64,000 nucleotides of DNA, taken from contig OZ245040.1 of the NCBI GenBank assembly GCA_965224195.1, positions 1,856,001-1,920,000 of the forward strand, in the 5' to 3' direction. This DNA is from Nitrosopumilus sp. GTDB lineage: Archaea; Thermoproteota; Nitrososphaeria; Nitrososphaerales; Nitrosopumilaceae. Below, one piece after another: positions 23,800 through 59,812 of the stretch. How positions within the stretch are numbered: position 1 is the first letter of the stretch; each line of letters starts with the position of its first letter. Under the pieces are notes generated by a model, which was given only the letters and a program-made list of their open reading frames with translations, was not told the DNA's origin and searched no databases. The position numbers and the translations under genes are program-made.

Positions 23800-24990
23800 T
23801 TACTCTTCTACCGGATCGAAATCATCAGATTCGATTTCTACTGTAGCCTCTACCTCAGGTGTTTCTACTGTAGCCTCTACCTCAGGTGTTTCTACTGTAG
23901 CCTCTACCTCAGGTGTTTCTACTGTAGCCTCTACCTCAGGTGTTTCTACTGTAGCCTCTACCTCAGACTTTTTTGCCTTTTTTGTAGTTGCTTTCTTGAC
24001 AGTTGTCTTTCTAGTCTTTTTCTCAGCTTCTTCAGGATCTACTACACCTGCTTCTGCTAAAGCAAAGATTACTTCTTCTTCAGGATGATGAGGACTATCC
24101 ACCATTCTGGCAATTCGTTTCTTGCCTGATTTCTTAAAGTAGATTCTGTAGGTACTAGTATGTGCAACTACATTTCCACCGATGGGTCTAGTAGGATCTC
24201 CAAAGAAGACATCAGGAGATGCCATAACTTGGTTGGTTGCAATTGCAGCACAGTTGTATGTTTCTGCAATTCTAGACAACAAATGGACAAAGTGATTTAG
24301 TTTTTGTTGTCTTACAGATAATGTTCCTCTTCCAAGATATTCAGCTCGGAATAGACCAACTGCAGAATCTGCAACAATTAGTTTAACATTGTTTTCTTCA
24401 ATTACCGGACCAGCTTCTTCTAAAATTAATATTTGATGTGAGCTATTGTATGCACGAGCTACTATGATATTGTCTAAAACTTTTTCAGGATCCATATCAT
24501 GTGCTTTAGCAATAGATATAATTCTCTCAGGTCTGAAAGTGTTTTCAGTGTCAATGTATAAGACAGAACCTTCAAGTCCACCTTCTTCTTTGCTTTTTTG
24601 AACCATCACAGACATAGTATGTGCAAATTGTGTTTTACCACAACCAAACTCTCCATAAACTTCAGTTAAAGCTTGAGTTTCAATACCACCATCAAAGAGA
24701 GTATCAAGACAATTAGTACCAGTTGTAATTCTACCAATACTTTGTCTATTTTTGTAAATTTCAGTTGCACTTGTAAAATGATTAGCAAGTAATCCACCAT
24801 CAACTAAATGTTGTCGGGCTTTATTGACAATTTTTTCAGCAGTATCCTTTTCCATTCCAGTAATAGATGCAATTTCAACAGGACCTCTGACGATGAGGTC
24901 CATGACGTTGTGGACACCTGCATCGGATAATTTTCTTGTAGTTACAGGACCTACGCCCTCTAAACTATCTAATCTTAAATCTTCCACCAT
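23800..24990 (-). CDS. radA: DNA repair and recombination protein RadA
   Basis: GEFGCGKTQ, YIDTENTFRPERI, GGNVVAH; acidic repeat tail. Confidence 0.97.
   Translation of the reverse strand: MVEDLRLDSLEGVGPVTTRKLSDAGVHNVMDLIVRGPVEIASITGMEKDTAEKIVNKARQHLVDGGLLANHFTSATEIYKNRQSIGRITTGTNCLDTLFDGGIETQALTEVYGEFGCGKTQFAHTMSVMVQKSKEEGGLEGSVLYIDTENTFRPERIISIAKAHDMDPEKVLDNIIVARAYNSSHQILILEEAGPVIEENNVKLIVADSAVGLFRAEYLGRGTLSVRQQKLNHFVHLLSRIAETYNCAAIATNQVMASPDVFFGDPTRPIGGNVVAHTSTYRIYFKKSGKKRIARMVDSPHHPEEEVIFALAEAGVVDPEEAEKKTRKTTVKKATTKKAKKSEVEATVETPEVEATVETPEVEATVETPEVEATVETPEVEATVEIESDDFDPVEE
23835..23966 (-). repeat. 27-bp coding tandem repeat (about 4.9 copies; EVEATVETP) in the RadA tail
   Basis: Exact repeats of TTTCTACTGTAGCCTCTACCTCAGGTG. 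Confidence 0.95.
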
Positions 24991-34007: not shown

Positions 34008-34193
34008 CATTTCACTGTTAACTACTACAAATAATGCTTTGATTGCAATTCGTAATTCATTTACAAACCACTTTAATTCCATAGGTAGTTTTGCGTCATC
34101 AGAAATTTTCGTCAGACGTTCATACCAATCATCATTTAATATTTCATCAAAACCTTGAATACTTTTAATGAAATCATCATCATAGTGTGTCAT
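34008..34193 (-). pseudogene. Small gene running into the nested element's right TIR
   Basis: The ORF reads ...VNSEM and then the TIR-derived GSVNLLAHRY. Confidence 0.55.
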
Positions 34194-34336
34194 TTTTTAT
34201 CTTTCACCCATCTCTCGATTGCTTTTTCAACTAACTCAGACACGTCAATATCTTCTTTGATAGCTTCTATCTTTGCTTTTTTCCATACATCAGGTCTTAC
34301 TTTGATCGATGTTGTAGTTCTTTCTACTTTCACCAT
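34190..34336 (-). CDS. Ribbon-helix-helix DNA-binding protein (48 aa, not in the ORF track)
   Basis: MVKVERTTTSIKVRPDVWKKAKIEAIKEDIDVSELVEKAIERWV; divergent from transposase 2. Confidence 0.8.
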   Translation of the reverse strand: MVKVERTTTSIKVRPDVWKKAKIEAIKEDIDVSELVEKAIERWVKDKK

Positions 34337-34395
34337 ATAATACCATACTACTCATAGTATATAATATTTTTCAAGAGTGTTTATGTAATAGTATT

Positions 34396-35524
34396 ATGTA
34401 CTACTACTAGTATAAATCCAAGACAAGAAAAAGGCAAACAAATAGCACTAAAATCAGATTTGATTAGAGTTTCAGACTATCATTATCATGTACATTCCCA
34501 GACTACCAATAGAGATTATGACGTTATCAGAGTAAATGAAAAATGGACGTGCACCTGTCCTGACCACAAGTATCGAAACAGAATTTGCTGTAAGCACATT
34601 CATGCAATAGAATTTTCAATCAAAATTAGAGAGGAGGTACGAGAAAGAAATAAGGTTACAATCGAACCTGTGACCATTGATTCTTGTCGCTTCTGTCATG
34701 GCAAGAACATTGTAAAAAATGGTGTTCGTAAAAACAAGCATACAGCAATTCAAAGATTCTCATGTTCAGATTGCCACAGAACATTCTCAATGAATCTAGG
34801 CTTTGAGAAGATGAAACACAATCCTAAAGGAATCACTACTGCCATGCAGTTGTATTTCTCAGGTGAATCATTAAGAAACGTGGCTAGATCCCTCAAACTT
34901 CTAGGCATGGATGTATCACACCAAACTATCTACAACTGGATTGAAAAATATACCAAACTCATGAATCAATACTTAGACAAGATAGTTCCCCAAGTAGGTG
35001 ATGCGTGGCGAGCTGACGAGATTTATGTAAAAATTCGTGGTGAATTAAAATATGTATTTGCAATGATGGATGATGAAACCAGATTCTGGATTGCTCAAGA
35101 AGTTGGTGACAGAAAAGAAGGACATAACGCAGGAGGGTTACTACAAAAGGCAAAACAAGTTACACAAACAAAACCTAAAGTGTTCATCACAGATGGTCTA
35201 GGATCATATCATGAAGCATACAAGAAAGAATTTTGGACATTGAAAAGACGTAACAGAACATTACACATCAGACATATTCACTTGCAAGATGACATGAACA
35301 ATAACAAGATGGAACGACTCAATGGAGAAATTAGAGATAGGGAAAAAGTAATGAGAGGAATAAAGAAAAAAGATTCAGTTACACTAACTGGTTATCAGTT
35401 GTTTCACAATTACATTCGACCACACAGTGCATTAGGTGGATTGACACCTAGTGAAAAATGTGGTATGGAGATTCAAGGAGACAATAAATGGATTACATTA
35501 ATTCAGAATGCTAGTAAGAAATGA
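34396..35524 (+). CDS. IS6-like DDE transposase with SWIM and Zn-ribbon N-terminus (start uncertain)
   Basis: CTCPDH..CCKH, CRFC..FSCSDC, WRADEIY, ITDGL, NNKMERLN. The body is intact; ATG 34396 is 1 nt out of frame and the first in-frame start is TTG 34460. Confidence 0.9.
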
Positions 35525-35803
35525 TTATTGATTATCTTGACAATGAACAAAGAACAGGATTTTTCTATCTCTCATTGGATTAATTACAACTTCTACTCTT
35601 CCATCAATGATAAACAACATGTGTCCTGCACTTTTTTGAACATGTGTACATTCAACAAATGCAGGATGTTTTTCAGGATGTTCAAATTCAACAATGTCTG
35701 TTTTGAATTTGGTTAGAAGATCTACGGAAGGATCAGAAACATACTCAATATTTACAAAATATTGTGACCACGTAGGTGTTTTACATGTCCAAAAACGAGT
35801 CAA
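35525..35803 (-). CDS. Hypothetical protein
   Basis: 92-aa ORF convergent on the transposase. Confidence 0.5.
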   Translation of the reverse strand: MTRFWTCKTPTWSQYFVNIEYVSDPSVDLLTKFKTDIVEFEHPEKHPAFVECTHVQKSAGHMLFIIDGRVEVVINPMRDRKILFFVHCQDNQ

Positions 35804-36057
35804 TATGTAACAAAAACTACTGAGGGATTAAATATCTACTTCTTGATCTTCCGTATGCGTCTCAAATTTCTTAGATGATTCTTGTGCTATTTTGAAATGA
35901 CGTTCTTCCCAATGTCTTTTCTCGGATTCCATGTTATAATGTAACATAATACATGTTATAAATTTTCGAAGTTTTACAACAATCACACACGATTATTAAG
36001 AAATTTACATAATCTTAATAATATTTGATATTTGGACGGTACCACTCAAATCTCCAT

Positions 36058-36105
36058 CAACTGACTTTTTACGCCTATTTTATCAACCGTAGGCTTTACA
36101 GAACC
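36058..36105 (-). repeat. Internal right-end TIR copy R1
   Basis: rc GGTTCTGTAAAGCCTACGGTTGATAAAATAGGCGTAAAAAGTCAGTTG. Confidence 0.85.
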
Positions 36106-36969
36106 TGATGAACACATTGATGAATTCAGAACACACATGAAAGATCACATGAAGGACCGCATGATGGACAAAGCCCATGATAAACCACATATGGATTATG
36201 ATAGACTATGTGCATTAGCAGATTCTGAACGTGCAGCAGAAATTGATGATTCAGAAAAACTTGACAGACTTTCTAAATGGTGTGATATGAGCGCTGAAGA
36301 AAGAGAAGACTATAAGATGAAACATCATGATGCCATGAAAGACAAAGCTCATGACAAAATGTCTGATGCAGCAAAAGACAAAATGAAAATGAAATTATCT
36401 GACAAATCTGACCGTATCAAGGCAATGATCATGGACAAACATGACATTTCTGATGAGCGTAGAGAAGAAATCAAGATGAAATACATTGAGAAACATGGTG
36501 ATCTGACTGACGAGAAAAAGTCTGAACTCAAAATGAAATTCAAAGATCATATGAAAAATATGAGAATGAATATCTCTGATGAGCGAAAATCTTCAATTCA
36601 TGATAGACTAGCTGAGATGAAAGCCTTCAAGGCAGAACTCCGCGATAGAGCATCTGAAATGACTGACGAGGAAAAACAGGAACTTGGAGCAGAATTCATT
36701 GAAAAGGCAAAAGACATGCAATTAGCATGGATTTCCCCACGCACACAAATGACTGCCGGCATTGATGCTGGAGATGTAGAATGTAGAGAAGGATTTAGCC
36801 TGGTAATGAAAGCATCAAACGGTGTTGCAATGTGCCTTAAAGCAGATACAGCACTTAAGTAATGAATTTGATTTCCTTCATAGATTCCTTTGTGCATGTT
36901 GCAATGTGCCTTAAAGCAGATACAGCACTTAAGATGATAGATAGAGGACTAGTAGTTCCTGCTAACTAA
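36106..36969 (+). pseudogene. M/K/D/H-rich helical protein fragment, 5'-truncated by R1 and interrupted near its 3' end
   Basis: The frame runs from the TIR; the C-terminal motif CREGFSLVMKASNGVAMCLKADTALK-MIDRGLVVPAN is split by a duplication/insert. Confidence 0.75.
36823..36933 (+). repeat. Repeat-spacer-repeat: 37-bp exact duplication around a 37-bp insert (CRISPR-like single spacer)
   Basis: TGTTGCAATGTGCCTTAAAGCAGATACAGCACTTAAG at 36823-36859 and 36897-36933. Confidence 0.9.
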
Positions 36970-37223
36970 TTTTTTTCTTTTTTATTTTAATTGAAGCCCT
37001 TCTGGCCCATGCCCTACTTGATCCTTTATCTGGCCCATGATTATAGAGGTGATACTATGACTATACCTGACTATTCTCTAGAGGATTTGTCCGACATTTC
37101 CCCCTTTGAAAATTACACTAGTGCGATCAGATATGTTGTAAATTATCCTGGTATTTTATATTCAGAAATAAAATAAAAATTTGAATTGATTTAGTAAAAT
37201 TATCTGAGAAATTAATTTTTACG

Positions 37224-54325: not shown

Positions 54326-55831
54326 ATGTATTCTGTAGTTTTAACAGAGTTAGGAATCTCAGTTTTCAATGATGGAAAACTAGACAAAGCATTTTCATTC
54401 TCAAATCCTGTAAAAGAGTACCTATTAGTCAAAAATAAAGAATCAAAATTAAATGAACTTGTAAATTATTTAGCATCAACTCAAAGAGGATTTTCTGTTA
54501 GTGATGAATCATTACTTGCAATTCTAAAAAAATATTCAATTGATTGTCACTTAATGGAAGAATCTGAATTAGATGAAATTCAAACAAACAAACCACAGAT
54601 TATTGTAGATTCAGGTTTTGCATCAAATCTACAAGATACACTTGGAAAATTAAGAGAATTTGCACTGGAATTATCATCATCAAAAGTTACCGAAGTTTCA
54701 GAAAGTCCAGATCTTCACATCATTCAAGCAATTAATTCTCTAGATGAAATTGATAAAATTGCAAATGGACTAAGTTCAAGGCTAAGAGAATGGTATGGAT
54801 TGCATTTTCCAGAACTAGATAATATTATTGACAGCATTAATGGATATGCACAAATTGTAATGGCAGGAAAAAGAGAATCATTAACTAAACAAATTTTTGA
54901 AGAAGCTGGTTTTCCAGAATCAAAAGTAGAGATGTTGTCATTAATTTCATCAAAAAGTAGAGGTGGAGATATTTCAGACATTAATTTATCAATAGTTCAA
55001 TCAATTGCAAAACAAGTTTTAGATTTTCACGAGTTACGTAAGAAACTTGAAGAACATGTTGAAGCAGAAATGCAAAATATTGCACCAAATACTTCAGCAA
55101 TTCTGGGTACTGCAGTAGGTGCAAGGATTTTAGGAAGAGCTGGAAGTCTCAAAAAAATGGCATCTCTTCCTGCTAGTACAATACAAGTTCTAGGAGCTGA
55201 AAAAGCATTATTCAGATCATTGAAGACAGGTTCACAACCGCCTAAACACGGATTATTATTCCAACATGCAATGGTTCATGCTGCTCCAAGATGGCAAAGA
55301 GGGAAAATTGCTCGTGCAGTAGCTGCCAAGGCAGTAATCGCTGCAAGAGTGGATGTTTACGGTAAGGGATTAAATCAAACTTTACTTGATAAACTCAACA
55401 TCAGAGTTGATGAAATTGGCAAAAAATATGAAAATCCTACTGAAAAAGACATGAGACCATCTCCATCATTTAGAAGAGAAGGCGGCTTTAGAGATAATCC
55501 AAGAAGAGGTGGAGGCCGAAACAGAGGTGGAGACCAAAGAAGAGAAGGCGGCTTTAGAGATAATCCAAGAAGAGATAGTGGAGATAGAAGAGAAGGCGGC
55601 TTTAGAGATAATCCAAGAAGAGATAGTGGAGATAGAAGAGAAGGCGGCTTTAGAGATAATCCAAGAAGAGATAGTGGAGATAGAAGAGAAGGCGGCTTTA
55701 GAGATAATCCAAGAAGAGATAGTGGAGATAGAAGAGAAGGCGGCTTTAGAGATAATCCAAGAAGAGATAGTGGAAGAAATGATGAAAGAACAGATTCAAA
55801 CAAAAAGAGAAAGAAGTTTGGAAGAAGATAA
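54326..55831 (+). CDS. nop5: Box C/D sRNP protein Nop5 (Nop56/58)
   Basis: REWYGLHFPEL, STIQVLGAEKALF, PPKHG; R/G/D repeat tail. Confidence 0.95.
   Translation: MYSVVLTELGISVFNDGKLDKAFSFSNPVKEYLLVKNKESKLNELVNYLASTQRGFSVSDESLLAILKKYSIDCHLMEESELDEIQTNKPQIIVDSGFASNLQDTLGKLREFALELSSSKVTEVSESPDLHIIQAINSLDEIDKIANGLSSRLREWYGLHFPELDNIIDSINGYAQIVMAGKRESLTKQIFEEAGFPESKVEMLSLISSKSRGGDISDINLSIVQSIAKQVLDFHELRKKLEEHVEAEMQNIAPNTSAILGTAVGARILGRAGSLKKMASLPASTIQVLGAEKALFRSLKTGSQPPKHGLLFQHAMVHAAPRWQRGKIARAVAAKAVIAARVDVYGKGLNQTLLDKLNIRVDEIGKKYENPTEKDMRPSPSFRREGGFRDNPRRGGGRNRGGDQRREGGFRDNPRRDSGDRREGGFRDNPRRDSGDRREGGFRDNPRRDSGDRREGGFRDNPRRDSGDRREGGFRDNPRRDSGRNDERTDSNKKRKKFGRR
55472..55774 (+). repeat. 48-bp coding tandem repeat (RREGGFRDNPRRDSGD; about 5 tandem copies plus 1 partial detached copy)
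   Basis: Exact units at 55538, 55586, 55634, 55682 and 55730. Confidence 0.95.
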
Positions 55832-58901: not shown

Positions 58902-59812
58902 TTAGCCTTCACAGGTTTTTTCAATTCAGCAATTACCCAATCCTCAATGAATTGGCAATTAGTAGGACTAATTTCCCCCTCAAGTGAACATTTCTGCTCA
59001 ACAGGACAAACTAAACATGGTGCATTTTCAATAGATTGTGTACTAATTGGGGTTTTCTTTAAAATTAATTTGTATGTCCAACGATTGTTCTCAAGAAGTT
59101 TTTCTCTAGTAATTGTACCCATTCTTTCAAGTTTTAATGCTAATCTAGAACCAACTTGATTAGTAAGTTTAAGTTTTTTCCATAATTCACTTTGGAACAT
59201 TCCATCAGACTCTTTCTCAGCTAAAATATCACAAACTTTGTTAGTCAGTCTTTCCATGTCAACTTTTTCGATTTGGAAATTTTCAATTTCTTCATCTGAG
59301 AGTTGTTCTTCTAATTCTTCTTCAAGTGTTAATTCGGCAATTCTTTTTTCTTCTTCTAATTCTTTTTTGGTTAATTTCTTTACTTTAACTGGTTTTTCTT
59401 CTACTTTCTTTGCAGGTTTTGCAGCAGCTTTCTTTGCAGGTTTTGCAGCAGCTTTCTTTGCAGGTTTTGCAGCAGCTTTCTTTGCAGGTTTTGCAGCAGC
59501 TTTCTTTGCAGGTTTTGCAGCAGCTTTCTTTGCAGGTTTTGCAGCAGCTTTCTTTGCAGGTTTTGCAGCAGCTTTCTTTGCAGGTTTTGCAGCAGCTTTC
59601 TTTGTAGTTTTCTTTGCAGGTTTTGCAACAGCTTTCTTTGTAGTTTTCTTTGCAGGTTTTGCAGCAGCTTTCTTTATAACTTTCTTAGTAGCTTTCTTTG
59701 CTGTTTTCTTTACAGATTTTGTATCTAAAATTTTCTTTTTCTTTTTTAATGCGTCAAGATCTGCCTTAATTTTTTCTGCTTCTTCAATTAGAGTATCTTT
59801 TTTCTTTGCCAT
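58898..59812 (-). CDS. TFE-beta/RPC34-like winged-helix Fe-S protein with histone-H1-like N-terminal extension
   Basis: QSELWKKL wHTH; PCLVCPVEQKC..ISPTNC..DW Cys cluster; KKAAAKPA repeats. Confidence 0.8.
   Translation of the reverse strand: MAKKKDTLIEEAEKIKADLDALKKKKKILDTKSVKKTAKKATKKVIKKAAAKPAKKTTKKAVAKPAKKTTKKAAAKPAKKAAAKPAKKAAAKPAKKAAAKPAKKAAAKPAKKAAAKPAKKAAAKPAKKAAAKPAKKVEEKPVKVKKLTKKELEEEKRIAELTLEEELEEQLSDEEIENFQIEKVDMERLTNKVCDILAEKESDGMFQSELWKKLKLTNQVGSRLALKLERMGTITREKLLENNRWTYKLILKKTPISTQSIENAPCLVCPVEQKCSLEGEISPTNCQFIEDWVIAELKKPVKAK
59405..59674 (-). repeat. 24-bp coding tandem repeat (KKAAAKPA, about 10 units)
   Basis: CTTTCTTTGCAGGTTTTGCAGCAG repeated 8 times contiguously, plus 2 units separated by KKTT. 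Confidence 0.95.

What the first reader, a model, noticed from the sequence alone, without database searches (positions are those of the whole stretch)
36823..36933. CRISPR-like 37/37/37 repeat-spacer-repeat inside a protein-coding gene
Seen: 37 bp of coding sequence (TGTTGCAATGTGCCTTAAAGCAGATACAGCACTTAAG) is exactly duplicated around an unrelated 37-bp insert (TAATGAATTTGATTTCCTTCATAGATTCCTTTGTGCA). The insert introduces a stop, and the native tail MIDRGLVVPAN resumes after the second copy. Known: Cas1-Cas2 integration duplicates a repeat-length target around a spacer-length fragment, off-target 'neo-CRISPR' events occur experimentally, and several archaeal CRISPR repeats begin GTTGCAAT. Inference: this may be a natural fossil of ectopic spacer acquisition. 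The duplication is far too long for an IS6 TSD.
Basis: partly seen in the sequence, partly recalled or inferred. Interest (0 to 1): 0.75.

Follow-up and report, generated by a model that had tools for sequence, protein, structure and literature searches.

The report
Stray CRISPR spacer inside a gene
A CRISPR memory-writing enzyme appears to have pasted a spacer into an ordinary gene instead of the CRISPR array, and this archaeal genome carries about three dozen such misplaced insertions, a natural record of how often this immune system damages its own host.

Summary
An exact 37-nt direct repeat (window 36823-36859 and 36897-36933) flanks a 37-nt insert whose first codon is a stop.

- The host appears to be a Nitrosopumilus, judged from the record titles of relatives. 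It has three Cas1-Cas2 modules and three arrays with 36-, 30- and 37-nt repeats and 35-37-nt spacers.
- Two paralogs in the same genome and 14 congeners carry the 37-mer once, followed directly by the native tail. These are empty sites.
- The insert is a 36/37 copy of a conserved host gene 1.66 Mb away, and homology stops at the insert ends.

The event is not unique. A genome-wide scan found 38 isolated repeat-insert-repeat units:
- Their periods peak at 70-76 nt, duplications are mostly 36-38 nt and inserts 34-38 nt.
- The inserts have the GC content of array spacers (41% against 33.5% for the genome).
- About 7 of 38 inserts are self-derived, against 0 of 288 array spacers.
- One end of many targets resembles the repeat 3' end (ATTGAA[AG]C).

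Sampled congeners with type I-G systems also carry such units. Two of three sampled genomes without CRISPR Cas1 carry none.

The best explanation is natural off-array (neo-CRISPR-type) integration by Cas1-Cas2. The unit is not a functional array. No PAM was found, and the responsible module (I-G or I-B-like) is unresolved.

The parts
36823..36859 (+). First copy of the duplicated target (37 nt; 36 nt, 36824-36859, under the alternative parse). It is the original 3' part of the coding sequence (...GVAMCLKADTALK).
   Evidence: Searches show the exact repeat. The same 37-mer occurs once in each of two paralogs at C1:44904-44940(-) and C1:1019919-1019955(+).
36860..36896 (+). Inserted spacer-length fragment (37 nt; 38 nt including the T at 36897 under the alternative parse). 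Its first codon, TAA, ends the ORF.
   Evidence: It is unique in the window. It matches C1:234868-234905 (minus strand) at 36/37, or 37/38, inside a DUF7482 gene, and homology ends exactly at the insert ends.
36897..36933 (+). Second copy of the duplicated target, 100% identical to the first.
36137..36862 (+). Truncated gene copy (241 aa, rich in His, Asp and Lys, no Pfam family). It is one of three near-identical paralogs, and the insertion removes its last 11 residues.
   Evidence: ORF; no Pfam hit; paralogs 99.2-99.5% identical; conserved in Nitrosopumilus records.
36934..36969 (+). Orphaned native C-terminal tail (MIDRGLVVPAN plus stop), now out of reach behind the stop codon in the insert.
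   Evidence: In both paralogs this tail follows the single 37-mer directly.
34008..36105 (+). Context: a copy of an IS about 2.1 kb long (transposase 34460-35524, DDE_Tnp_IS240 plus SWIM). It abuts the start of the gene copy and is not the cause of the 37-nt duplication.
   Evidence: Other copies lie at C1:1426912-1429009 and C1:1548503-1549566.

Best explanation
The unit is a fossil of off-array spacer integration by one of the host's own Cas1-Cas2 integrases. The candidates are the type I-G Cas4/Cas1-Cas2 module (36-nt repeats) and the I-B-like Cas1-Cas2-Cas4 module (37-nt repeats).

The proposed sequence of events is as follows. A prespacer of 37-38 nt was cut from the host's own DUF7482 gene. 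The integrase docked on a half-site in the coding sequence that looks like the 3' end of a CRISPR repeat (ATTGCAAC against ATTGAA[AG]C). It made its two staggered strand transfers 36-37 bp apart, as it would across a real repeat, and gap repair duplicated the stretch between them. The result is repeat-spacer-repeat with a stop codon, which removes the last 11 residues of one of three paralogous genes.

What is shown: the geometry, the empty sites, the donor, the presence of matching arrays and adaptation genes, and the existence of about 37 further units of the same geometry in this genome and more in congeners. What is inferred: catalysis by Cas1-Cas2, which module acted, and the order of the two strand transfers.

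The unit is probably inert as an immune locus. It has no leader, its repeat lacks the hairpin of the I-G repeat (the I-B-like repeat was folded only in part), and its spacer matches the host.
For: 1. Geometry. The duplication is 37 (or 36) nt and the insert 37 (or 38) nt. The genome's arrays have a 36-nt repeat x90 with spacers mostly 36-37 nt, and a 37-nt repeat x132 with spacers mostly 35-36 nt (37 nt in 20 of 131). All repeats within these two arrays are identical.

2. Machinery. There are 3 Cas1 hits, each next to an array. Neighbours are Cas4g/Cas1g, Cas2, Csb2, Cas3g and Cas7g; Cas7/Csh2, Cas5b, Cas3, Cas6b, Cas1, Cas2 and Cas4; and Cas4, Cas1b and Cas2.

3. Empty sites. Two paralogs in the genome and 16 loci in 14 of 40 congeners searched have the 37-mer once, joined to the tail. 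No locus found carries the insert.

4. Donor. The insert matches C1:234868-234905 at 36/37. The flanks are unrelated, with microhomology of at most 1 nt.

5. The event belongs to a class. Of 55 isolated repeat pairs with periods 40-140, 35 have periods 70-76. This gives 38 curated units, 31 of them with a 34-39-nt duplication and a 33-41-nt insert, plus two with a 30-nt duplication that matches the 30-nt array.

6. Composition. Insert GC is 40.9%, against 40.4-42.3% for array spacers and 33.5% for random genomic 36-mers (P = 2e-6).

7. Self-derivation. 7 of 38 inserts have a full-length donor in the genome, against 0 of 288 array spacers (Fisher P = 2e-7). This fits the idea that off-array spacers are not expressed and so are not purged.

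8. Target motif. A de novo motif TTGCA[AG]C sits with its C at the end of the duplication (offset 0 to -2) in 11 of 38 units, including this one. Junction positions -7 T, -4 C and -1 C/G are biased in G000, and the same biases appear in 18 units from three congeners.

9. A second unit (C1:1363425) has an empty-site paralog.

10. Congeners. G118 (I-G, 36-nt repeat) has 9 isolated pairs at periods 71-74 in 400 kb (one of them looks tandem). G123 has 3 in 800 kb and G055 has 1-2 in 400 kb. Cas1-free G002 has 0, and G012, which has only a casposase-like Cas1, has 0 credible units.

11. Reads. A 64-nt unitig of run X19 (depth 452, against 391 for a single-copy neighbour) covers 36830-36893 without a difference, so it crosses the repeat-to-insert junction.
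Against: - No PAM could be shown. The six donor loci share no flank motif, and TTN, the PAM of the Geobacter I-U/I-G system (PMC6547450, passages seen), fits only 1 of 6 donors and not this one.
- Nothing beside the target resembles any of the three leaders. This rests on my reading, not on a formal test.
- Whole-length similarity of the targets to the repeats is weak. For the I-G repeat the observed mean is 14.0 against a control mean of 13.3 identities (P = 0.015). For the 37-nt repeat it is not significant (P = 0.27). The terminal 8-mer test is significant but modest (mean 4.84 against 4.40, P = 0.002).
- The insert differs from its donor at one base, so the source may have been a close relative's DNA, or one copy may have mutated since.
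X19 may also be the sample the genome was assembled from. No listed contig spans the whole unit.
- G007, with no Cas1 found, still shows 2-3 doubtful units.
- The AG preference just outside the junction in G000 (8 of 76 ends read C|AG) was not reproduced in congeners.
Confidence: 0.88

Rival explanations
1. Templated insertion during break repair or replication. A polymerase copied 37 nt from a distant locus by template switching and then re-copied 37 nt of the target (microhomology-mediated repair), with no role for Cas1-Cas2.
For: The insert is a copy of another place in the same chromosome. One base (T) is shared at the insert/second-copy junction.
Against: Microhomology is at most 1 nt at one junction and none at the other. 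This model does not predict that the duplication and insert lengths equal the CRISPR repeat and spacer lengths. It does not predict a sharp period peak at 70-76 over 35 units, nor that 31 of 38 inserts have no donor in the genome. It does not predict spacer-like GC in the inserts, a repeat-end-like motif at the junction, or the absence of such units in two sampled genomes without CRISPR Cas1.
Confidence: 0.05
2. Assembly or sequencing artefact, such as a chimeric read or a mis-join among the three near-identical paralogs.
For: The gene is present in three 99% identical copies, which can confuse assemblers. No listed contig of four public runs spans the whole unit, and contigs of runs X18 and X20 show the form without the 74 nt. 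The two paralogs would produce that form anyway.
Against: A unitig of run X19 crosses the first junction at single-copy depth. A mis-join among paralogs cannot create a precise 37-nt copy of a gene 1.66 Mb away between two exact copies of the target. Another 37 units with the same geometry lie in single-copy DNA, and similar units occur in three other assemblies.
Confidence: 0.03
3. Footprint of another mobile element or integrase, for example a casposase, an IS or a site-specific recombinase that left a long target duplication and a short remnant.
For: An IS lies 700 nt upstream. Casposons with Cas1-family integrases are known in this genus (PMC8464041, listing and start of abstract only), and several congeners have Cas1 frames of about 410-425 aa that may be casposases (this is my reading of their lengths).
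Against: All three Cas1 genes of this genome sit beside arrays together with Cas2. The inserts are all different, show no obvious terminal inverted repeats (not formally tested) and are not repeated. From recall, not from any call, IS6 and casposon target duplications are 8 bp and about 14-15 bp. G012, with only a casposase-like Cas1, shows no unit in 400 kb.
Confidence: 0.03

Closest known systems
Off-target ('neo-CRISPR') spacer integration by Cas1-Cas2, described by Nivala, Shipman and Church, Nat Microbiol 2018. That paper is not held here. I know it only through citing papers: bioRxiv 10.1101/148544, PMC6698737 and PMC7054753 (passages seen).
   Same: A spacer-length fragment is inserted outside a CRISPR array, with duplication of a repeat-length stretch of the target. 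The result is a new repeat-spacer-repeat unit, at sites that share features with repeats.
   Different: According to the citing papers, that work used E. coli type I-E with overproduced Cas1-Cas2 and gave only 'circumstantial evidence' for two other species. Here the events are natural and in an archaeon with type I-G and I-B systems. There are dozens per genome, many inside genes, about a fifth are self-derived, empty sites are preserved in paralogs, and they recur in several congeners. None has grown beyond one spacer.
In vitro off-target integration by Pyrococcus furiosus Cas1-Cas2 (PMC6698737, passages seen)
   Same: An archaeal integrase places spacers into non-CRISPR DNA at sites that share sequence features with the repeat. 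The repeat sequence and spacing set where the two transfers occur.
   Different: That was a plasmid assay with purified proteins. Here the products are fixed in chromosomes, and the duplication length varies from 34 to 39 nt, which suggests a loose ruler when only one half-site is present.
Ectopic spacer acquisition within arrays (Streptococcus thermophilus CRISPR1/3, PMC7999890; listing and start of abstract only)
   Same: The integrase uses a site other than the leader-proximal repeat.
   Different: Those events fall at genuine repeats inside an array. Here the targets are ordinary coding or intergenic DNA with no array.
Type I-U/I-G Cas4/Cas1 fusion adaptation module of Geobacter sulfurreducens (PMC6547450, abstract and passages seen)
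   Same: This genome encodes a Cas4g/Cas1g fusion (714.7 bits against NF049935) next to Cas2 and a 36-nt-repeat array.
   Different: The Geobacter module selects a TTN PAM with high fidelity. Only 1 of 6 donor loci here has TTN. The passages I saw from that paper do not mention off-array integration.

Membership tests
Off-array (neo-CRISPR-type) Cas1-Cas2 spacer integration | Target duplication equal to the CRISPR repeat length of the same genome | tested here: met
   The duplication is 37 nt (or 36). The arrays have 37-nt and 36-nt repeats.
Off-array (neo-CRISPR-type) Cas1-Cas2 spacer integration | Insert of spacer length | tested here: met
   The insert is 37 nt (or 38). Array spacers are 32-48 nt with modes of 35-37.
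Off-array (neo-CRISPR-type) Cas1-Cas2 spacer integration | Host encodes Cas1 and Cas2 | tested here: met
   There are three Cas1 genes, each with a Cas2 and a Cas4 or Cas4 domain. Arrays with 90, 69 and 132 repeats, identical but for one terminal copy of the 30-nt array, suggest the modules are or recently were active.
Off-array (neo-CRISPR-type) Cas1-Cas2 spacer integration | A precise empty site exists (one copy of the target, no insert, no other change) | tested here: met
   Two paralogs and 16 loci in 14 congeners.
Off-array (neo-CRISPR-type) Cas1-Cas2 spacer integration | Insert derives from a protospacer elsewhere, with homology ending at the insert ends | tested here: met
   C1:234868-234905, 36/37, with unrelated flanks.
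Off-array (neo-CRISPR-type) Cas1-Cas2 spacer integration | PAM next to the protospacer | tested here: inconclusive
   The PAMs of these systems are unknown. The six donors share no flank motif, and TTN is absent here.
Off-array (neo-CRISPR-type) Cas1-Cas2 spacer integration | Target resembles the repeat or the leader-repeat junction | tested here: inconclusive
   One end is 7/8 identical to the repeat 3' end, and the class shows a junction motif. No leader-like flank is present, and whole-repeat similarity is weak.
Off-array (neo-CRISPR-type) Cas1-Cas2 spacer integration | Catalysis by Cas1-Cas2 shown directly | not testable with these tools
   This needs an integration assay or genetics.
Functional CRISPR array | Repeats with the sequence or hairpin that the host's Cas6 or Cas5/6 recognises, a leader, and more than one spacer | tested here: not met
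   The duplicated 37-mer does not fold better than shuffled sequence (z -0.8 and +0.3), whereas the I-G repeat forms a 7-bp stem. There is a single spacer and no leader. No ectopic unit in the genome has a third repeat.
IS or transposon insertion with target-site duplication | An element with terminal inverted repeats or a transposase, present in several copies, with a short duplication | tested here: not met
   The insert is 37 nt, unique apart from its donor gene, and non-coding. The neighbouring IS ends 718 nt upstream. TSD lengths of IS6 are from recall.
Microhomology-mediated templated insertion | Microhomology at both template switches; lengths not tied to CRISPR geometry | tested here: not met
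   Shared bases at the junctions are 0 and 1 nt. The lengths of the whole class match the arrays.

The most novel reading that the evidence does not exclude
In Nitrosopumilus, CRISPR adaptation, most likely by the type I-G Cas4/Cas1-Cas2 module, is an ongoing endogenous mutagen. It writes spacers all over the chromosome (about 1 per 55 kb here, denser in a sampled 400 kb of one congener), breaks genes, and favours DNA near the arrays. Because off-array spacers are not expressed, they keep an unselected record of what the integrase captures, including roughly one fifth self DNA. The near-absence of decayed units suggests rapid turnover, possibly by recombination between the two repeat copies, which would restore the gene exactly. 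Such units would also be the raw material from which new arrays could arise.
Probability: 0.6. Interest if true: 0.9.

Novelty: new member of a known kind. Interest (0 to 1): 0.8.

Why it matters
Off-array integration by Cas1-Cas2 is known from overexpression experiments and test-tube assays. According to the papers I could read, evidence that it happens in nature is thin.

This genome offers a natural example with every element preserved: the unit, its empty site and its donor. It also offers a set of about 38 units here and more in relatives. That makes several open questions directly testable from sequence:
- How specific is an archaeal type I-G or I-B integrase in vivo, and which half-site does it read?
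- How much genome damage does adaptation cause? Several units here split or truncate genes.
- How often is self DNA captured before autoimmunity removes it from arrays? Here the count is about 7 of 38 off-array against 0 of 288 in arrays.
- Can new arrays be born this way?

The finding also matters for annotation. These units create frameshifts and stops that look like sequencing errors or pseudogenes, and some CRISPR finders may report them as mini-arrays.

Tried and rejected
PAM. I compared both flanks of the six credible donor loci and found no shared motif. TTN (from PMC6547450) fits only the donor of the unit at C1:886994, and only under a 36+36 parse.

Viral source of the other inserts. 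Three 24-nt cores of GC-rich ectopic inserts gave 0 exact matches in viral contigs. This is weak, because only exact matches count.

Leader similarity. By eye, the flanks of the target on either strand do not resemble the ends of the three leaders. There was no formal test.

Whole-repeat similarity. It was not significant for the 37-nt and 30-nt repeats and weak for the 36-nt repeat.

Empty sites in congeners for other units:
- The region C1:910900-913300 (three units) has no match in 40 congeners.
- At C1:739057 the alignments to congeners stop at the unit, but the locus differs by about 290 nt, so it is not a clean test.
- C1:1325900-1327100 gave only weak partial matches.
- Only C1:1363425 gave a clean empty site, and that was in a paralog.

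Island hypothesis for the cluster at 882-924 kb. No Phage_integrase match lies near it and its GC is ordinary at 32-38%. The cluster remains unexplained.

Reads. Contigs of runs X18 and X20 show the form without the 74 nt. The two paralogs would produce this form anyway, so it says nothing about polymorphism. X18 has no cover over 36838-36854, and I draw nothing from that hole.

Rows dropped. Of 51 candidate pairs, I dropped 6 as tandem (insert shares a 10-mer with the repeat) and 6 as outside the filter of period 66-80 and duplication 28-48. This included C1:1326359, with a 54-nt duplication and period 89, which may still be a real unit. A further one (C1:1073464, a collagen-like repeat) was dropped. 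Five of the 38 kept units have odd lengths and are doubtful: 690217, 798295, 813401, 923061 and 1619794.

Literature. Four searches listed no paper that describes many natural off-array spacer insertions in an archaeal genome. I saw only listings, abstract starts and the cited passages. Nivala et al. 2018 is not held and supplements are closed. Their natural examples and any similar catalogue could therefore overlap with this finding without my knowing.

Full report
OBSERVATION

The 37-mer TGTTGCAATGTGCCTTAAAGCAGATACAGCACTTAAG stands at window 36823-36859 and again, without a difference, at 36897-36933. The 37 nt between the copies are unrelated to it. The bases just outside the two copies differ, so the exact duplication is 37 nt.

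The ORF 36137-36862 (241 aa) ends at the TAA that opens the insert. The codons for MIDRGLVVPAN plus a stop follow the second copy. The insert occurs once in the window, and 0 of 100 shuffles gave a match.

THE GENOME

The window is C1:1856001-1920000 of a 2.07-Mb genome in two contigs, with GC 33.6%. The public records that hold the closest relatives of the target protein are all titled Nitrosopumilus, Nitrosopumilaceae or Thaumarchaeota/Nitrososphaerota (22 of 22 loci). I therefore take the organism to be a Nitrosopumilus.

EMPTY SITES

The same 37-mer occurs at two further places in the genome, C1:44904-44940 (minus strand) and C1:1019919-1019955. These lie in paralogs that are 99.2-99.5% identical to the window's gene copy. 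In both, the single 37-mer is followed directly by the ATGATAGATAGAGG... tail.

I searched 40 congeners and relatives with window 36500-37100. In 14 genomes (16 loci) the part before the insert and the part after it align to adjoining places that overlap by about the length of the 37-mer. They therefore carry one copy and no insert. No locus with the insert was found outside the window. The 74 nt are thus an insertion plus duplication in this one gene copy.

DONOR

The insert matches C1:234868-234905 on the minus strand at 36 of 37 positions, or 37 of 38 if the next T is counted. The flanks of that place are unrelated to the flanks of the insert.

The place lies inside a 487-aa ORF with a DUF7482 domain. 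The same stretch is found at 81-92% identity in 11 congeners, away from the target gene. The source is therefore a conserved host gene, or a close relative's copy of it, which would explain the single mismatch. Because the donor match runs one base further, the unit can also be read as a 36-nt duplication with a 38-nt insert.

CRISPR-CAS IN THE SAME GENOME

Three Cas1 genes were found, each beside a large array.

| Array | Coordinates on C1 | Repeat | Spacer lengths | Neighbouring cas genes |
|---|---|---|---|---|
| A1 | 707205-713740 | 90 identical 36-nt repeats | mostly 36-37 nt (38 nt in 12 of 89) | type I-G set: Cas4g/Cas1g fusion (714.7 bits), Cas2, Csb2, Cas3g, Cas7g |
| A2 | 941990-946529 | 69 30-nt repeats | 36-37 nt | Cas4, Cas1b, Cas2 |
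| A3 | 1457181-1466783 | 132 identical 37-nt repeats | mostly 35-36 nt (37 nt in 20 of 131) | Cas7/Csh2, Cas5b, Cas3, Cas6b, Cas1, Cas2, Cas4 |

To orient the arrays I placed the leader next to the adaptation genes and the degenerate repeat at the far end. This is my reading. On that orientation the repeats end in ATTGAAGC (A1), ATTGAAAT (A2) and ATTGAAAC (A3). The minus strand of the duplicated 37-mer ends in ATTGCAAC followed by A. That is 7 of 8 identical to A3's end and 6 of 8 to A1's.

The lengths in the finding therefore fit the host's own arrays. The 37+37 parse fits A3 and the 36+38 parse fits A1.

NOT A LONE EVENT

I scanned contig C1 for pairs of near-identical stretches (at least 26 of 28 matching) at every spacing from 40 to 140 nt. 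The three arrays were left out. I kept pairs with at least 20 nt between the copies and no other pair within 400 nt.

Of the 55 pairs kept, 35 have periods of 70-76, and the other 94 periods share 20 pairs. After refining the boundaries and dropping tandem and out-of-range cases (listed under Tried and rejected), 38 units remain:
- 31 have a duplication of 34-39 nt and an insert of 33-41 nt. Of these, 23 have exact repeats and 8 have one mismatch.
- Two have a 30-nt duplication with inserts of 36 and 39 nt, which fits array A2.
- Five have odd lengths and are doubtful.

Each unit duplicates a different sequence and each insert is different. A table of thresholds shows few decayed units. At period 73, 12 places reach 24 of 36 matches and 11 of them reach 33 of 36. 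The units are therefore young, or are lost quickly.

THE INSERTS BEHAVE LIKE SPACERS

Mean insert GC is 40.9%. The three arrays' spacers have 40.4-42.3%, and random genomic 36-mers have 33.5% (P = 2e-6).

Seven of the 38 inserts have a full-length or nearly full-length match elsewhere in the genome, and homology ends at the insert ends. One of the seven, 690217, is doubtful. None of the 288 array spacers has such a match outside the arrays (Fisher P = 2e-7). This is expected if self-derived spacers in arrays are removed by autoimmunity while off-array ones are silent.

THE TARGETS

A de novo motif search on the 31 reconstructed empty sites with 34-40-nt duplications gave TTGCA[AG]CAG. In 11 of 38 units the best match places its C at the last base of the duplication, or one or two bases inside it. 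Seven of these sit exactly at the last base. I estimate about 2 would be expected if the position were random.

I then read all 76 ends outward. Position -7 is T in 37, -4 is C in 26, -1 is C or G in 47, +1 is A in 29 and +2 is G in 27. All of these are off the background.

In 18 units from three congeners (36 ends), the inner biases recur: -7 T in 18, -4 C in 12, and -1 C or G in 23. The outer AG does not recur.

The picture is a half-site that resembles the 3' end of the repeats at one junction. The other junction is set by distance, loosely, at 34-39 nt.

Where the units lie:
- The targets are somewhat GC-richer than the genome (39.6%).
- 20 of 38 lie within 100 kb of an array, a zone that covers 30% of the genome (P = 0.003).
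- 8 of 38 lie in C1:882-924 kb, where 0.8 would be expected.
- Part of that stretch has no match in 40 congeners.

EFFECT ON GENES

By a simple stop-to-stop measure, 23 of 38 units lie in open frames of at least 100 aa. Of these, 11 have periods divisible by three, and several others split or truncate the frame. An example is the 414-aa frame at C1:739057, which now reads as 327 plus 120 aa.

The unit in the window removes 11 residues from one of three paralogs. That copy also has an IS inserted just before its start.

A SECOND VERIFIED UNIT

For the unit at C1:1363425, a paralog at C1:923803-924392 aligns to the two sides with a 38-nt overlap and no insert.

CONGENERS

52 of 121 genomes of the genus have a Cas1-family match, including G000. 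Some of these have frames of about 410-425 aa, which I take to be casposases. I sampled stretches of six genomes with the same scan.

| Genome | CRISPR status | DNA sampled | Units found |
|---|---|---|---|
| G118 | I-G array with a 36-nt repeat | 400 kb | 9 isolated pairs at periods 71-74 (one looks tandem; 8 analysed) and 6 at 64-67 with duplications of about 30 nt |
| G123 | 36-nt and 30-nt arrays | 800 kb | 3 at periods 72-74, two of them within 25 kb of the I-G locus |
| G055 | I-G | 400 kb | 1-2 |
| G002 | no Cas1, GC 52% | 400 kb | none at periods 60-80 |
| G012 | only a casposase-like Cas1 | 400 kb | one pair, in a collagen-like repeat |
| G007 | no Cas1 found | 400 kb | 2-3 doubtful pairs |

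G000 scanned in the same way in five 400-kb blocks gave 2, 6, 10, 8 and 8 pairs at periods 70-76.

The sample is small and the genomes are related. It does show that the phenomenon is not a quirk of one assembly. It also shows that a genome whose only array in the sampled stretch, and only full-length Cas1, belong to a 36-nt I-G system still has units with 35-38-nt duplications.

READS

Logan contigs of four public runs were laid on window 36600-37100. In run X19 a 64-nt unitig covers 36830-36893 with no difference. That is 30 letters of the first copy and 34 of the insert. Its depth is 452, against 391 for a neighbouring single-copy contig and about 1400-1700 for the three-copy gene.

This supports the first junction at about one copy per genome. 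The joined form seen in X18 and X20 is what the paralogs give.

WHAT IT IS

The simplest account of all this is off-array integration by the host's Cas1-Cas2. A prespacer was inserted by two staggered strand transfers one repeat-length apart, and the stretch between them was filled in and so duplicated.

It is not a working CRISPR locus. There is one spacer and no leader. The duplicated stretch does not fold better than shuffled sequence, while the I-G repeat has a 7-bp stem. No ectopic unit in the genome has acquired a third repeat.

Which module acted is open. The position of the motif favours the 36+38 reading and so the I-G module, because with the 36-nt parse the C of ATTGCAAC is the last base, as in seven other units. 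The I-G congeners point the same way. The 7/8 match to A3's repeat end and the exact 37+37 reading favour the I-B-like module.

RIVALS

Template-switch repair, an assembly error, or another element's footprint each explain one feature. None explains the match to the arrays' geometry, the period peak, the spacer-like composition, the junction motif and the link with CRISPR-bearing genomes taken together.

KNOWN OR NEW

Off-target integration that creates new repeat-spacer-repeat units was reported for E. coli with overproduced Cas1-Cas2. According to a citing preprint, there was also circumstantial evidence in two other species. I could not read that paper or any supplements.

Off-target integration at repeat-like sites was also shown in vitro for Pyrococcus furiosus. 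Four literature searches listed nothing on dozens of natural off-array insertions in an archaeal genome. I therefore file the unit as a new, natural member of a known kind of event. I rate its interest high because of the scale, the preserved empty sites and donors, and what the set allows one to measure.

LIMITS
- No PAM was found.
- No whole-unit read support was obtained.
- Catalysis is inferred, not shown.
- The curated count depends on my filters.
- Congeners were sampled only in part, and ended further fetching.

Noticed in passing
window 34008-36105: A copy of an IS about 2.1 kb long. Its 354-aa transposase (34460-35524) has a DDE_Tnp_IS240 domain and a SWIM zinc finger. A 99.4% identical copy lies at C1:1426912-1429009 and a partial one at C1:1548503-1549566. 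In the window it ends exactly where homology to the paralogous gene copy begins (36106), so this gene copy has an IS at its 5' side as well as the spacer near its 3' end.
   Followed up: partly
G000 C1:1626220-1626330 (locus L048 420-530): Two degenerate copies of a repeat like the I-G repeat (CTTCAATGGGACCGTAAC...) lie 74 nt apart, far from any cas gene. About 100 nt upstream is a fragment like the 30-nt repeat. They look like remnants of old arrays.
   Followed up: partly
G000 C1:882000-924000: 8 of the 38 ectopic units lie in this 42-kb stretch, where 0.8 would be expected. C1:910900-913300 within it has no DNA match in 40 congeners. No Phage_integrase match is nearby. The gene content was not examined.
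   Followed up: partly
G000 C1:1363663-1363900 (L047 664-901) and 7 other places: An element of about 240 nt is present in 8 copies at 98-99% identity in this genome, and in many copies at 70-82% identity in several congeners (G015, G017, G055). It may be a MITE or an IS end.
   Followed up: no
congener G118 C1:1250001-1650000 (loci L090-L109): Besides the units with 35-38-nt duplications there are 6 units with periods 64-67. Duplications are about 30 nt in four, and two refine to 21-24 nt; inserts are about 34-36 nt in the clean ones. Yet apart from the I-G Cas4/1, only a short Cas1 fragment was found in that genome. These may be traces of a lost 30-nt-repeat system.
   Followed up: partly
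window 23835-23966; 55538-55774; 59404-59708: Perfect or near-perfect tandem repeats of 27 nt (4.9 copies, 100%), 48 nt (4.9 copies, 100%) and 24 nt (11.3 copies, 88%). All have periods divisible by three, so they probably lie within coding sequence.
   Followed up: no
G000 C1:1326359: A pair with a 54-nt duplication and a 35-nt insert (period 89) lies 170 nt from a regular unit (C1:1326527). It may be an integration with a misplaced second strand transfer. It was excluded from the count.
   Followed up: no
G000 contig C2 (7434 nt): A small second contig, GC 31%, with ORFs of 633 aa and at least 480 aa running off its end. No array spacer or ectopic insert matched it. It was not identified.
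   Followed up: no
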